The notes under the pieces were generated by a model. That model did no database searches. It was not told the origin of the DNA and worked only from the letters and a program-made list of their open reading frames with translations. Of a stretch of DNA of 20,000 nt, positions 17,229-20,000 are shown in pieces. Position 1 is the stretch's first letter. Every line of letters starts with the position of its first letter. The DNA is from an uncultured virus (IMG/VR IMGVR_UViG_3300042507_002727) (Duplodnaviria; Heunggongvirae; Uroviricota; Caudoviricetes), in IMG/VR virus record IMGVR_UViG_3300042507_002727. The stretch is one strand, 5' to 3'. A program made the translations under genes and the position numbers.

Positions 17229-18656
17229 ATGTCATTCGTTAATGCAGTTCAGAAATCCAAGAACAAAGCAGTCGCTCGTACCGCGAATGGTATGAAGGCT
17301 CGTGCTACTTCACAGTCGCCAGTTCTGGATCTATTCGGTCTTATCGGTTCCGCTCGTGGTACTGATATCACCAAGCAATTCACCGCTTCTCTCGTAGAGA
17401 ATGCCGATCTTACTCTGCGTATGCTGCAGTGGGCTCGTGACATTCGTGAGGGCGCAGGCGAACGTGCTACCTTCCGTAATCTACTCTCTGCGCTAGAGGC
17501 TACCGACCCAACTCTTGCCGGAAAGCTGATGCACAAAATCCCAGCACTTGGTCGTTGGGATGACCTCTTTGCCTACAAGAACCCGATCAACCGCAATCAG
17601 GCTTTCGCTCTGATTGCAGAGGCTCTTGAAGCAAAGAATGGTCTGGCAGCAAAGTGGATGCCACGTAAAGGTCCGGTCGCAGTCGAACTGACTCGATACC
17701 TCGGTCTGTCTCCTAAGGCATACCGTAAGCTCATTGTCGGTTTGACCAATGTCGTTGAGACTCAGATGTGTGCTAAGGAATGGGAAGCTATCAACTTCTC
17801 GCACGTTCCTTCTGTCGCGTCTGCTCGTTATCAGAAAGCTTTCGGTCGTAATGCAAAAGAGTCCTACTCTGCTTACATTGCGGAACTGAAGAAGCCTGTT
17901 GCTGAGCGTTCAGATCCTAAAGTCAAGATCAACGCTTCTGCGGTTTATCCGTATGATGTTGTGAAGTCTGTCGTGAAGGGTAATGCGGCTGTTGCTGATG
18001 AACAGTGGAAGGCTATGCCTAACTACATCGGCGATGCAAAGGTTCTGCCTATGGTCGACGTCTCCGGCTCGATGGGTTCGCTGTGGTACACCTACAGCCA
18101 ACTGCAGCCAATCGACATTGCTGTTTCTCTTGGCCTTTATTGCGCTAGCAAGAACACCGGAGACTTCAAGGATCTGTTCCTGACCTTCTCTGGTAAGCCT
18201 AAGATGGAACACCTGAAAGGTACTCTGTCTCAGAAGATGACTCAGATGACAAAAGCTCACTGGGAAATGAACACCAACCTGCACGCAGCATTCGATGAGA
18301 TCCTCAAGATCGCTGTTAAGGGCAATGTGTCTCAGGAAGATATGCCTGACATGCTGCTCATCCTTTCGGACATGCAGTTCGATGCTTGCACTCGCTACGA
18401 TGACTCTGCAATGCAGATGATCAAGCGTAAGTACAAGGAAGCAGGCTACGATGTTCCAAAGATCGTCTTTTGGAACCTGTCCATGTACGGTAAGGAAAAC
18501 GGTAACACTCCAGTTAAGTTCGACAAGAACGGTACTGCGCATGTTTCTGGTTTCTCTCCTTCCATCATGAAGCATGTTCTCGCAAACGACCTCGAGGAGT
18601 TTACTCCATACAATGTTATGTTGAAGACTCTGATGAGCGATCGTTATGCCTACTAA
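17229..18656 (+). CDS. TROVE/Ro60-like RNA-binding protein with vWA domain (DUF2828-type)
   Basis: RDIREGAGER, GRWDDL, LAAKWMPR, VPSVA helical region; MIDAS DVSGSM, T, LILSDMQFD, IVFWNL, SGFSP; strongly biased codon usage. Confidence 0.85.
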   Translation: MSFVNAVQKSKNKAVARTANGMKARATSQSPVLDLFGLIGSARGTDITKQFTASLVENADLTLRMLQWARDIREGAGERATFRNLLSALEATDPTLAGKLMHKIPALGRWDDLFAYKNPINRNQAFALIAEALEAKNGLAAKWMPRKGPVAVELTRYLGLSPKAYRKLIVGLTNVVETQMCAKEWEAINFSHVPSVASARYQKAFGRNAKESYSAYIAELKKPVAERSDPKVKINASAVYPYDVVKSVVKGNAAVADEQWKAMPNYIGDAKVLPMVDVSGSMGSLWYTYSQLQPIDIAVSLGLYCASKNTGDFKDLFLTFSGKPKMEHLKGTLSQKMTQMTKAHWEMNTNLHAAFDEILKIAVKGNVSQEDMPDMLLILSDMQFDACTRYDDSAMQMIKRKYKEAGYDVPKIVFWNLSMYGKENGNTPVKFDKNGTAHVSGFSPSIMKHVLANDLEEFTPYNVMLKTLMSDRYAY

Positions 18657-19334: not shown

Positions 19335-19440
19335 ACTCTGTTTTCAACTAGGGTTCGCGGTTCGATTCCGTGCTGGGCTTCGCGGGCCCGGGTTGCTGCA
19401 GCAGATAGTCATGGATGACGACCCTAGTTGAAAACAGAGT
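19335..19440 (+). ncRNA. circularly permuted tRNA-like RNA (YrlA-like topology)
   Basis: Perfect 20-bp terminal stem enclosing a T arm (CGCGG-TTCGATT-CCGTG), a GC-rich hairpin and a D-like arm (TA-GTCA-TGGA-TGAC). Confidence 0.65.
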
Positions 19441-19442
19441 TT

Positions 19443-19517
19443 TGGGAAGTAGTTCAGCGGCAGAATAACTGACTTTGAATCAGCAGGCCGGTGGTTCGAA
19501 TCCACCCTTCCCAACCA
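19443..19517 (+). tRNA. tRNA-Gln(UUG)
   Basis: Acceptor TGGGAAG/CTTCCCA, loop CTTTGAA, GGTTCGAATCC, CCA. Confidence 0.93.
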
Positions 19518-19525
19518 ATAATCAT

Positions 19526-19603
19526 CTGGGTGTAGCTCAGTCTGCGTAGAGTGCTTGCCTTGGAAGCAAGAAGTCGCTGGTTCGAATCCAGTCATCCAGA
19601 CCA
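19526..19603 (+). tRNA. tRNA-Pro(UGG)
   Basis: Acceptor CTGGGTG/CATCCAG, arm CTTGC-CTTGGAA-GCAAG, GGTTCGAATCC, ACCA. Confidence 0.93.
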
Positions 19604-19613
19604 AAAATACCTG

Positions 19614-19642
19614 TTGACATTCATTTAGAATCAGTATATTCT
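19614..19642 (+). promoter_or_regulatory. early sigma70-type promoter with GAATCAG spacer motif
   Basis: TTGACA-ttcatttagaatcagta(17)-TATTCT. Confidence 0.75.
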
Positions 19643-19665
19643 GATAATACGAAAAGGAAAAAGAA

Positions 19666-19815
19666 ATGAAACGAAAACATAAGGACCTACCGAAGGCACG
19701 AAACCCATTCGTCCTTCATCTTTCCAAACGTCTTTCGGGCGCACACGGAAAGACTAAAAAAGCGGAACGCCGTAGTGATAAGATGGCGTTGAAGCAGGAA
19801 TGGACGGTTAGCTGA
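19666..19815 (+). CDS. 49-aa basic protein (MKRKHKDLPKARNPFVLHLSKRLSGAHGKTKKAERRSDKMALKQEWTVS), possible ribosome-rescue-factor-like
   Basis: Own promoter, AAGGA RBS; stop codon lies inside tRNA-Lys. Confidence 0.65.
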   Translation: MKRKHKDLPKARNPFVLHLSKRLSGAHGKTKKAERRSDKMALKQEWTVS

Positions 19816-19878
19816 GTTGGTTTAGCGGCGGGCTTTTAATCCGCGTCAACCAGGGTTCGAATCCCTGACCGTTCACCA
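19802..19878 (+). tRNA. tRNA-Lys(UUU)
   Basis: Acceptor GGACGGT/ACCGTTC, arm GCGGG-CTTTTAA-TCCGC, T arm CAGGG-TTCGAAT-CCCTG, ACCA. Confidence 0.93.
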
Positions 19879-19888
19879 TTACTTTGAT

Positions 19889-19980
19889 GATGCACCGAGG
19901 GCGATTGGTACCAGCCCTTTCCTTGGTGGAAGCCTGCCGTTGAGGTGGGTGGGAGAGTTTCGATACCTCCACGGTGTATC
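19889..19980 (+). ncRNA. tRNA-like cloverleaf RNA without a canonical anticodon loop or CCA
   Basis: 9-bp closing stem GATGCACCG/CGGTGTATC with four internal hairpins, the last containing TTCGAT. Confidence 0.5.
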
Positions 19981-20000
19981 TTCTAAGTAATAGGAGTAAA

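What the first reader, a model, noticed from the sequence alone, without database searches (positions are those of the whole stretch)
19614..19878. Basic micro-protein whose stop codon is inside tRNA-Lys: non-stop mRNA by tRNA processing (ArfA-like logic)
Seen: the ORF 19666-19815 has its own promoter and RBS. It is Lys/Arg-rich with RNP..L and GAHGKTKK motifs, and its last 14 nt, including the TGA, are the first 14 nt of tRNA-Lys (starts 19802). Established: RNase P cleaves at the tRNA 5' end. ArfA/BrfA-type rescue factors are short basic proteins made from deliberately non-stop mRNAs, so they accumulate only when tmRNA tagging is limiting. Inference: tRNA maturation truncates this mRNA before its stop, making it a candidate phage ribosome-rescue factor controlled by tmRNA status. 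Homology to ArfA is not demonstrated.
Basis: partly seen in the sequence, partly recalled or inferred. Interest (0 to 1): 0.78.

Follow-up and report, generated by a model that had tools for sequence, protein, structure and literature searches.

The report
Stop-less small phage gene abutting tRNA-Lys
A tiny, strongly basic phage protein gene has no stop codon of its own and runs straight into a tRNA-Lys gene, and its many relatives show the same design with tRNAs or long hairpins, as bacteria do for their back-up ribosome-rescue factors.

Summary
ORF 19666-19815 (49 aa) has a promoter and a Shine-Dalgarno site. Its TGA lies 12-14 nt inside tRNA-Lys(UUU), which starts at 19802.

It is a real gene: dN/dS is 0.04-0.28, and a profile finds 936 cluster representatives. 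No Pfam, NCBIfam, PHROGs or PDB match was found.

The missing stop is a family trait. In 21 of 29 related viral loci the stop lies inside tRNA-Lys(UUU). In a GC-rich metagenome clade the frame reads through the whole tRNA. Among 68 distinct members, 29 have no stop before a sense tRNA. Several bacterial members without a tRNA carry long hairpins at the same place, like the arfA hairpin, which the same script recovers. About a third have ordinary stops.

ArfA homology is rejected (hhalign probability about 0.1%). A rescue function is inferred by analogy only.

Best reading (0.4): RNase P leaves a stop-less message, so the yield depends on host trans-translation, and the roughly 45-aa product acts on ribosomes as an ArfA/BrfA analogue. 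Rivals are tight packing, a tRNA-Lys-linked role, and self-limitation.

This scan found the same family before on other DNA (e1-6017385, e1-6068930).

The parts
19614..19642 (+). sigma-70-type promoter, TTGACA (19614-19619), 17-nt spacer, TATTCT (19637-19642); part of a 37-nt element found 12 times in the phage genome
   Evidence: 10 of 12 matches; 12 copies, each followed by an SD and a start codon; BLAST copies in the own genome
19654..19658 (+). Shine-Dalgarno-like AAGGA, 7 nt upstream of the ATG
   Evidence: read; the same AAGGAA-type leader follows the other 11 promoter copies
19666..19815 (+). 49-codon ORF of a basic small protein; the stop TGA at 19813-19815 lies inside the tRNA
   Evidence: homologs; purifying selection
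19666..19800 (+). the 45 codons upstream of the tRNA: the conserved module, and the predicted product of the processed stop-less mRNA
   Evidence: alignment (conservation stops at about residue 45); junction table
19801..19802 (+). predicted RNase P cleavage site (U at -1, G+1 of the tRNA). Cleavage would end the mRNA one nt after codon 45
   Evidence: tRNA 5' end; the cleavage is inferred from the established action of RNase P and was not measured
19802..19878 (+). tRNA-Lys(UUU), CCA encoded; its positions 12-14 supply the ORF's TGA
19878..19991 (+). conserved 19-bp closing stem (two U-U mismatches) around a hypervariable interior, directly after the tRNA; part of the conserved ORF-tRNA-stem module in relatives; function unknown
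   Evidence: 16 distinct copies; compensatory changes in L014; no Rfam match

Best explanation
This is a real, conserved gene for a basic peptide of about 45 residues that is built without a stop codon of its own. It is transcribed from a repeated early-type phage promoter together with tRNA-Lys(UUU). RNase P cuts at the tRNA 5' end (19801|19802) and leaves an mRNA that ends one nt after codon 45. Ribosomes therefore run to the 3' end. When host trans-translation (tmRNA-SmpB) has spare capacity, the peptide is tagged and degraded. When that capacity is exhausted, as may happen late in infection or under RNA-cleaving defence, the untagged peptide accumulates. By analogy with ArfA and BrfA, the only known proteins made this way on purpose, the peptide most likely acts on ribosomes with an empty mRNA channel as a back-up rescue or release-assisting factor. 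It is an analogue of ArfA, not a homolog. Shown here: the gene, its promoter and SD site, its conservation, the family-wide lack of a stop before a tRNA or hairpin, and the lack of ArfA homology. Inferred: cleavage in vivo, tagging, and the rescue activity.
For: Geometry. Real gene: dN/dS is 0.04-0.28 in the 11 pairs for which it could be computed, and differences at codon positions 1/2/3 are 1417/1314/3147. There are 29 viral loci, 31 protein clusters and 936 representatives at E<=1e-3. The stop-less design is conserved. The stop lies inside tRNA-Lys(UUU) in 21 of 29 viral loci, with overlaps of 10, 14, 15 or 24 nt, so the junction has been remade several times. In 21 of 51 metagenome loci tRNA-Lys(UUU) starts 40-43 nt after the GxHxK motif and the frame reads 80-233 nt through it. 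Further lineages are L115/L116 and L112. The census finds 29 of 68 distinct peptides with no stop before a sense tRNA. Of 166 family proteins, 32 have C-tails that are translated sense tRNAs. Conservation ends at the tRNA boundary and the tails are unrelated. A second device sits at the same place: members without a tRNA (L026, L027, L063, L074, L085, L090, L091, L093, L094) have long hairpins (dG -33 to -69, z -3.8 to -7.1 for most) starting right after the module, with the stop inside or downstream. Five of these nine (L063, L085, L090, L093, L094) had at least one neighbouring ORF with an ordinary bacterial Pfam family, L091's only neighbour hit was a metallo-beta-lactamase-fold protein, and L026, L027 and L074 were not put to that scan; L026 and L027 come from the viral collection. 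The same script recovers the known arfA hairpin at nt 135-218 of the E. coli CDS. In this phage's tRNA island, three other real-looking ORFs keep their own stops 1-2 nt before tRNAs; only this ORF does not. BrfA and ArfA are made from stop-less mRNAs and arose independently (PMC6881298, passages read).
Against: There is no sequence or profile similarity to ArfA and no PDB relative. About a third of distinct members have ordinary stops with no tRNA or strong hairpin, for example L032, L034, L038, L042, L043, L049, L076, L077, L083, L088 and L113. L095-L098 have their own stop 159-165 nt before tRNA-Lys. In the window's clade a stop is available 14 nt into the tRNA, so unprocessed transcripts could give a normally terminated 49-mer. 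ORF/tRNA overlaps are common in phage tRNA islands according to earlier notes of this scan. Many of the counted loci are close relatives, so the counts are not independent events. I count about 8-10 separate lineages by eye. No transcript ends could be read, because only contigs from RNA libraries were available.
Confidence: 0.4

Rival explanations
1. The overlap is a by-product of tight packing. An ordinary small phage protein of unknown function sits against a tRNA, uses the stop that conserved tRNA nucleotides supply, and is translated from unprocessed transcripts. The overlap has no regulatory meaning.
For: Three other ORFs in this island end 1-2 nt before tRNAs, so packing is tight. Earlier notes of this scan report many ORF/tRNA overlaps in phage tRNA islands and judged most of them packing (not rechecked here). 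About a third of family members have ordinary stops. Contigs from RNA libraries bridge the ORF/tRNA boundary (records 7 and 11), although they may be DNA.
Against: The stop-less state persists across lineages with different junctions (overlaps of 10, 14, 15, 24 and 80-233 nt). In the GC-rich clade no usable stop exists within the tRNA. Cellular members, where packing is not an issue, carry long hairpins at the same place. Conservation stops exactly at the tRNA edge.
Confidence: 0.2
2. The protein works with or for tRNA-Lys(UUU). It might protect or assist the phage's replacement tRNA-Lys against anticodon nucleases of the PrrC type, or couple translation of a Lys-rich leader to maturation of that tRNA. 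The shared transcript would then reflect a functional pair.
For: The sense tRNA that the ORF runs into is Lys(UUU) in 26 of 29 distinct cases. It is also the best match for 21 of 32 translated tails. L095-L098 keep tRNA-Lys(UUU) 159-165 nt downstream even with their own stop. The pair stays together while upstream neighbours change (tRNA-Pro, Cys, Met, Thr). The role of PrrC is recalled knowledge and comes from no call.
Against: Cellular members have no adjacent tRNA. Some members run into tRNA-Phe or tRNA-Pro, or precede tRNA-Gln. Lys codons in the ORF are split evenly between AAA and AAG (read), and the peptide is conserved well beyond its lysines, which does not fit a mere leader.
Confidence: 0.2
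3. The gene limits its own product or acts as a decoy. The stop-less design keeps a potentially harmful basic peptide at a very low, rapidly degraded level, or it loads the host tmRNA/ClpXP system with substrate. The peptide would not be a rescue factor.
For: The structural evidence for a stop-less message is the same. It is driven by one of 12 copies of a strong-looking promoter.
Against: A decoy would not need sequence conserved over 936 clusters with invariant R, H, K and R positions. Cellular members have no obvious reason to titrate their own tmRNA.
Confidence: 0.15

Closest known systems
ArfA (alternative ribosome-rescue factor A, Pfam PF03889; E. coli yhdL)
   Same: It is a small basic protein whose conserved part is followed by an unconserved tail. 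The coding region contains an RNA-processing element before or at the stop, so the active product comes from a stop-less mRNA. The long hairpins in family members without a tRNA resemble the arfA hairpin in size and position.
   Different: There is no homology: no PF03889 match at E<=10 and an hhalign probability of about 0.1%. The family lacks the KGKGSY motif and has RNPFV and GAHGKTKKAxRR instead. In phages the truncating device is a tRNA (RNase P), not an RNase III hairpin. Rescue activity is untested.
BrfA (B. subtilis release-factor-dependent rescue factor; PMC6881298)
   Same: It is made from a stop-less mRNA because a terminator lies inside the ORF, and it is regulated negatively by trans-translation. 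It arose independently of ArfA, which shows that this design recurs (passages read).
   Different: BrfA has 71 codons with an intrinsic terminator. No BrfA sequence was compared here, so homology was not tested.
Same-orientation CDS/t(m)RNA gene overlaps predicted to give non-stop mRNAs (Hudson, Lau and Williams 2014, PMC4131195; smpB-ssrA in Carsonella)
   Same: The CDS lies upstream of a valid tRNA and overlaps it in the same orientation, so maturation should remove the stop. The idea is already in print (passages read).
   Different: That survey counted only Pfam-positive bacterial CDSs and found such overlaps rare (about 1 in 15,000 mRNAs), covering few evolutionary events. Here the overlap is a conserved trait of one unnamed family, mostly in phages, and hairpins can take its place.
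ORFs ending inside tRNAs in phage tRNA islands (T4 segB; T5 hegC and hegD), as reported in earlier notes of this scan
   Same: A phage ORF takes its stop from the next tRNA.
   Different: Those are homing-nuclease genes and the overlaps were judged unstable packing effects (not rechecked here, papers not read). This ORF is a conserved non-nuclease peptide whose stop-less state is kept across lineages.
Pfam DUF7230 (PF23876)
   Same: It is a short family of unknown function. One of 146 family members matches it at E 9.3e-4, and one Atlas cluster near the query has 16% of members with it.
   Different: The window's protein does not match it at E<=10. The model also finds nothing in 4 related phage records at E<=1. 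It is at most a distant relative.

Membership tests
ArfA (PF03889) | Sequence match to the family model | tested here: not met
   There is no Pfam match at E<=10 for the protein. PF03889 finds nothing in the whole phage record at E<=10, while the control finds E. coli arfA.
ArfA (PF03889) | Profile-profile similarity to an ArfA alignment | tested here: not met
   hhalign of A1 (26 sequences) and A2 (146 sequences) against the ArfA alignment A4 (12 sequences, mostly enterobacterial) gives probabilities of 0.07% and 0.12%.
ArfA (PF03889) | Invariant KGKGS(Y) motif | tested here: not met
   The motif is invariant in A4 and absent from the 26-sequence family alignment, which has GAHGKTKK at the comparable place.
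ArfA/BrfA-type regulation (works-like test, not membership) | The coding region is interrupted by an RNA-processing or termination element before its stop codon | tested here: met
   The window has the tRNA 5' end 12 nt before the stop. In the family, 29 of 68 distinct members have no stop before a sense tRNA, and at least 9 have a long hairpin with the stop inside or beyond it. About a third do not show this.
ArfA/BrfA-type regulation (works-like test, not membership) | The product is SsrA-tagged and accumulates only when trans-translation is limiting | not testable with these tools
   This needs expression in wild type and in ssrA/smpB mutants. Only contigs from RNA libraries were available.
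Release-factor-dependent rescue factors | Binds the empty mRNA channel and recruits RF2 or RF1 for stop-independent release | not testable with these tools
   This needs in vitro release assays or cryo-EM.
BrfA | Sequence similarity to BrfA | not tested
No PDB chain matched the family profile at E<=10; whether the library holds BrfA was not checked.
CDS/tRNA same-orientation overlap (Hudson et al. 2014 class) | The CDS is upstream of a valid tRNA on the same strand, with its stop inside the tRNA | tested here: met
   The tRNA scores 56.1 bits against Rfam RF00005.
Pfam DUF7230 (PF23876) | Match to the family model above its cut-off (27 bits) | tested here: not met
   One search finds none at E<=10. 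One search finds 1 of 146 members at E 9.3e-4. One search finds 0 of 4 related phage records at E<=1.

The most novel reading that the evidence does not exclude
The family would be a new, independently evolved class of ribosome-rescue factor, widespread in phages and present in some bacteria. Its synthesis would be gated by trans-translation through at least two interchangeable mRNA-truncating devices: a sense tRNA cut by RNase P, or an arfA-like long hairpin. A possible third is an antisense tRNA. In phages it would be welded to a replacement tRNA-Lys(UUU). The two together would form a counter-measure to host attacks that cleave tRNA-Lys or mRNA and jam ribosomes: the tRNA restores decoding and the peptide frees stalled ribosomes.
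Probability: 0.25. Interest if true: 0.9.

Novelty: new variant of a known kind. Interest (0 to 1): 0.7.

Why it matters
Only a few back-up ribosome-rescue factors are known (ArfA, ArfB, ArfT, BrfA), and many bacteria that survive without tmRNA have none of them. I found no phage-encoded factor of the ArfA type in two full-text searches. Here an unnamed family of 936 clusters carries the one regulatory signature that so far marks such factors, and it does so with different devices in different lineages. That gives a concrete candidate which can be tested with a synthetic 45-mer and standard E. coli genetics. If the family turns out not to be a rescue factor, it is still the clearest case so far of tRNA maturation used as a conserved way to make a stop-less message.

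Tried and rejected
1. ArfA homology was rejected.

2. The family profile against PDB sequences found 0 matches at E<=10.

3. PHROGs and NCBIfam gave 0 matches for the protein. NCBIfam gave 0 of 146 for family members.

4. Cultured phages gave no megablast match. tblastn gave only 6 records, all at E>=4.

5. Complex prediction of the 45-mer with E. coli RF2 gave no verdict: score 0.00 in both runs and the controls were not folded. The peptide's own fold was under pLDDT 50 in at least one run. This is evidence neither for nor against binding.

6. A phage tmRNA or an ArfB-like protein was sought in the phage record. No RF-1 domain was found at E<=0.01. The only tmRNA-model hits were below threshold, in the tRNA island.

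7. The genome-contig scan used too narrow a pattern. It returned one true MAG locus and one false hit.

8. I first dismissed the 8 hits among 401 Pseudomonadota genomes. That was a mistake. hmmsearch shows that L041-L046 are true divergent members.

9. Poly(A) completion of a UAA after RNase P cleavage, as in mitochondria, fits the window (GAA-U|). It does not fit L024, L033, L035 or the clade with C at -1, so I dropped it as a general rule.

10. RNA evidence is weak. Contigs from four metatranscriptome runs cover parts of 19433-19967, including the ORF at 97-98% identity (records 6 and 13), and bridge the ORF/tRNA edge (records 7 and 11). Contigs show no ends, and DNA may be present in such libraries.

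11. The viral scan with P0042 found nothing, and the scan with A3 found one locus.

12. The first hairpin census missed L026 and L027 because of its step size. I corrected this with whole-region folds and local folding.

Full report
**What is there.** The window lies on the minus strand of a 217,966-bp virus record that is judged complete. The record carries T4-type replication genes: a family B polymerase, a UvsW-like helicase and an SMC/Rad50-like ATPase. It has 32 tRNA genes. The ORF at 19666-19815 encodes 49 residues. tRNA-Lys(UUU) starts at 19802 (Rfam 56.1 bits). So 45 codons and one nucleotide lie before the tRNA, and the TGA occupies tRNA positions 12-14.

A TTGACA-17-TATTCT site lies at 19614-19642, and no terminator-like site lies in 19400-20000. 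AAGGA sits 7 nt before the ATG. The promoter belongs to a 37-nt element with 12 copies in the genome. Each copy is followed by the same kind of leader and a start codon. The phage therefore treats this ORF like its other promoter-driven protein genes.

**Is it a gene?** Yes.
- Relatives were found in 29 IMG/VR loci at 55-100% identity.
- They were also found in 31 protein clusters.
- A profile of 26 sequences finds 936 cluster representatives at E<=1e-3 among 1.84 billion proteins, 39 of them at E<=1e-10.
- Across 17 aligned loci, differences at codon positions 1, 2 and 3 number 1417, 1314 and 3147. dN/dS is 0.04-0.28 in the 11 listed pairs where dS could be computed; in the other listed pairs dS was saturated.
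- The conserved core runs from a Lys-rich N-terminus through (P)RNPFV to (S/A)GAHGK(T/S)xKAxRRxxK, and it fades at about residue 45.
- Nothing in Pfam, PHROGs, NCBIfam or the PDB sequences matches.
- DUF7230 is at most a distant lead: 1 of 146 members at E 9.3e-4, 16% of one Atlas cluster, and 0 of 4 related phage records.

**The missing stop is a family trait.**

*Viral loci.* The stop lies inside tRNA-Lys(UUU) in 21 of the 29 loci. The overlap is 14 nt in 16 loci, 15 nt in 2, 10 nt in 2 and 24 nt in 1. One locus stops 4 nt before tRNA-Gln, and 7 have no tRNA just downstream. The different overlaps and reading phases show that the junction has changed while the stop-less state was kept.

*Metagenome loci.* In a more distant, GC-rich subfamily (51 loci), tRNA-Lys(UUU) starts 40-43 nt after the GxHxK motif in 21 loci. 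The frame has no stop there and reads 80-233 nt through the tRNA and beyond. Three further loci run into tRNA-Phe or tRNA-Pro. Two more lineages came from another scan: L115/L116 with a 10-nt overlap, and L112, from a 382-kb record, which reads through.

*Protein tails.* Of 166 family proteins with the motif, 32 have C-terminal tails that are translations of sense tRNA genes. A further 55 are too short to tell, and 79 gave no match.

*Census.* I classified 68 distinct peptides:

| State | Number |
|---|---|
| No stop before a sense tRNA (26 Lys-UUU, 2 Phe, 1 Pro) | 29 |
| Own stop with a sense tRNA downstream | 5 |
| Runs into an antisense tRNA-Arg(CCU) | 3 |
| Long hairpin with the stop inside or after it | 13 |
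| Hairpin after the stop | 2 |
| Ordinary stop | 15 |
| Runs off its contig | 1 |

That script missed the hairpins of L026 and L027, and it also counted some weak structures. After whole-region folds and local folding, I accept 9 clear hairpin cases: L026, L027, L063, L074, L085, L090, L091, L093 and L094. About a third of members keep plain stops. Many loci are close relatives, so these counts are not independent events. I see about 8-10 separate tRNA-abutting lineages.

**Hairpins replace the tRNA in cellular members.** Seven hairpin loci (L063, L079, L082, L085, L090, L093, L094) had at least one flanking ORF that matched an ordinary bacterial Pfam family. Examples are an RF3-like GTPase beside L063, a Glu/Gln-tRNA synthetase C-terminus, methylglyoxal synthase, a citrate transporter, an M20 peptidase and short-chain dehydrogenases; in L085 the only hit was an LTXXQ-family protein. 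L091's only neighbour hit was a metallo-beta-lactamase-fold protein, and L088, which has an ordinary stop, lies beside an EAL-GGDEF protein and an ABC ATPase.

Divergent members also occur in 8 of 401 sampled Pseudomonadota genomes at E<=0.001. Six of these look convincing on inspection. I had first misjudged them.

In the 9 clear cases a long, nearly perfect stem starts within about 0-60 nt of the end of the conserved module. These stems have 16-20 contiguous pairs or more, dG from -33 to -69 kcal/mol, and z from -3.8 to -7.1 for most. The stop lies in the apical part (L026, L027, L093, L094), in the 3' arm (L085), just after the stem (L063), or well beyond it (L074, L090, L091). None is followed by a T-run.

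The same script run on E. coli arfA recovers the hairpin at nt 135-218 of its 219-nt CDS, with dG -37. I recall from the literature that this is the RNase III site which makes arfA mRNA stop-less. Hudson et al. cite that work.

**What it is not.** It is not an ArfA homolog. PF03889 finds nothing in the protein or in the whole phage record. Profile-profile comparison with an ArfA alignment gives probabilities of 0.07% and 0.12%. BrfA could not be compared.

**Most likely mechanism.** Established knowledge says that RNase P cuts precisely at the tRNA 5' end. Here U stands at -1 and G at +1. Cleavage would leave a message ending one nt after codon 45. Ribosomes would reach that end and would need tmRNA-SmpB, which tags the peptide for degradation, or a back-up factor.

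ArfA and BrfA are the known proteins made deliberately in this way, and they evolved independently (PMC6881298). The idea that CDS/tRNA overlaps give non-stop messages is in print, where such overlaps are described as rare in bacteria (PMC4131195).

The family adds three things: an unnamed, widespread peptide; two interchangeable truncating devices at one position; and a mainly phage distribution. The peptide is small and basic, has a Gly-rich basic C-terminal half, and gave a low-confidence fold. That is compatible with a factor that probes the empty mRNA channel, but it is analogy only. My confidence in the whole chain is 0.4. It is higher, about 0.6, for "built to give a stop-less message" alone.

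**Rivals.**
- *Tight packing (0.2).* It fits the island's habit of ORFs that end 1-2 nt before tRNAs and the earlier notes of this scan. It does not fit the read-through clade or the cellular hairpins.
- *A tRNA-Lys(UUU)-linked role (0.2).* It fits the striking fidelity to that one tRNA. It does not fit the cellular members without a tRNA.
- *Self-limitation or a tmRNA decoy (0.15).* It shares the structural evidence but does not explain the conserved sequence.

**Other checks.** The phage record has no RF-1-domain protein and no tmRNA above threshold. The DNA occurs in at least 14 lake-water metagenome runs. Contigs from RNA libraries cover the ORF and bridge the tRNA edge, but they cannot show ends or prove transcription. 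Two literature searches found no phage-encoded ArfA-type factor and no description of this family. I saw only listings and abstracts there, apart from the two papers of which I read passages.

**Earlier notes of this scan.** Notes e1-6017385 and e1-6068930 describe what appears to be the same family on other DNA and reach the same reading. I did not use them as evidence. I re-derived the tRNA and hairpin patterns independently here.

Noticed in passing
window 19878-19991 (also L009-L037, L112, L115 and L116 just after tRNA-Lys(UUU)): A conserved RNA element follows the tRNA directly. Its invariant ends, AUUACUUUGAUGAUACACU and AGUGUAUCUUCUAAGUAAU, pair into a 19-bp stem with two U-U mismatches. 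The stem encloses a hypervariable interior of 45-80 nt. There are 16 distinct copies, and L014 shows two compensatory changes. There is no Rfam match. It could be an RNase III-type processing stem, a small RNA with a variable part, or the inverted ends of a small mobile element.
   Followed up: partly
window 17229-18656 (+): A 475-aa protein with DUF2828 and DUF7788 domains (E 4.6e-20 and 5.2e-49) lies directly upstream of the tRNA island. From memory, this architecture resembles Ro60-like TROVE plus vWA proteins that bind structured small RNAs. That link was not tested.
   Followed up: no
G000:C1:55646-55723 (minus strand; outside the window): ARAGORN calls a tRNA with anticodon CUA (labelled Pyl), which would be a possible amber suppressor, in the phage's tRNA island. 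I did not check whether the phage recodes TAG.
   Followed up: no
whole record G000 (12 sites; window copies at 1889 on the minus strand, 13247 and 19614): A 37-nt promoter element, TTGACATTCnTTTAGAATCAGTnTAttCTnATAAT, occurs 12 times. Each copy is followed by a near-identical leader (TAAGGAACGAAAGGAA) and a start codon. This looks like a phage-specific early promoter-leader cassette.
   Followed up: partly
L056 and L057 (about 590-860 in L056); L052 and L053: At the position of tRNA-Lys, the L056/L057 relatives carry an insertion of about 210 nt inside what translates like a tRNA. It contains a 37-bp hairpin with dG -69.7. This may be an intron or insertion in the tRNA. L052 and L053 appear to have a shortened tRNA remnant. 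ARAGORN calls no tRNA in either case.
   Followed up: no
L075, L081, L084 (and the same tail in L099): In these members the ORF runs into a convergent tRNA-Arg(CCU) gene, so the 3' part of the message is antisense to a tRNA. This may be a third way to truncate or pair the mRNA, or it may be chance.
   Followed up: no
L063:1358-2581 (+): One hairpin-type bacterial member lies directly upstream of an RF3-like translational GTPase (GTP_EFTU E 1.1e-56, weak RF3_C). This is a single case of a neighbour linked to translation termination.
   Followed up: no
G000 island, 391-543 nt beyond the window's end (+ orientation; reverse-complement record coordinates 150250-150402): A 50-aa ORF (MTVEERLAKLEAII...) ends 1 nt before tRNA-Lys(CUU). 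ORFs of 77 and about 300 aa end 1 nt before two tRNA-Ser genes. These keep their own stops, unlike the ORF studied here.
   Followed up: partly
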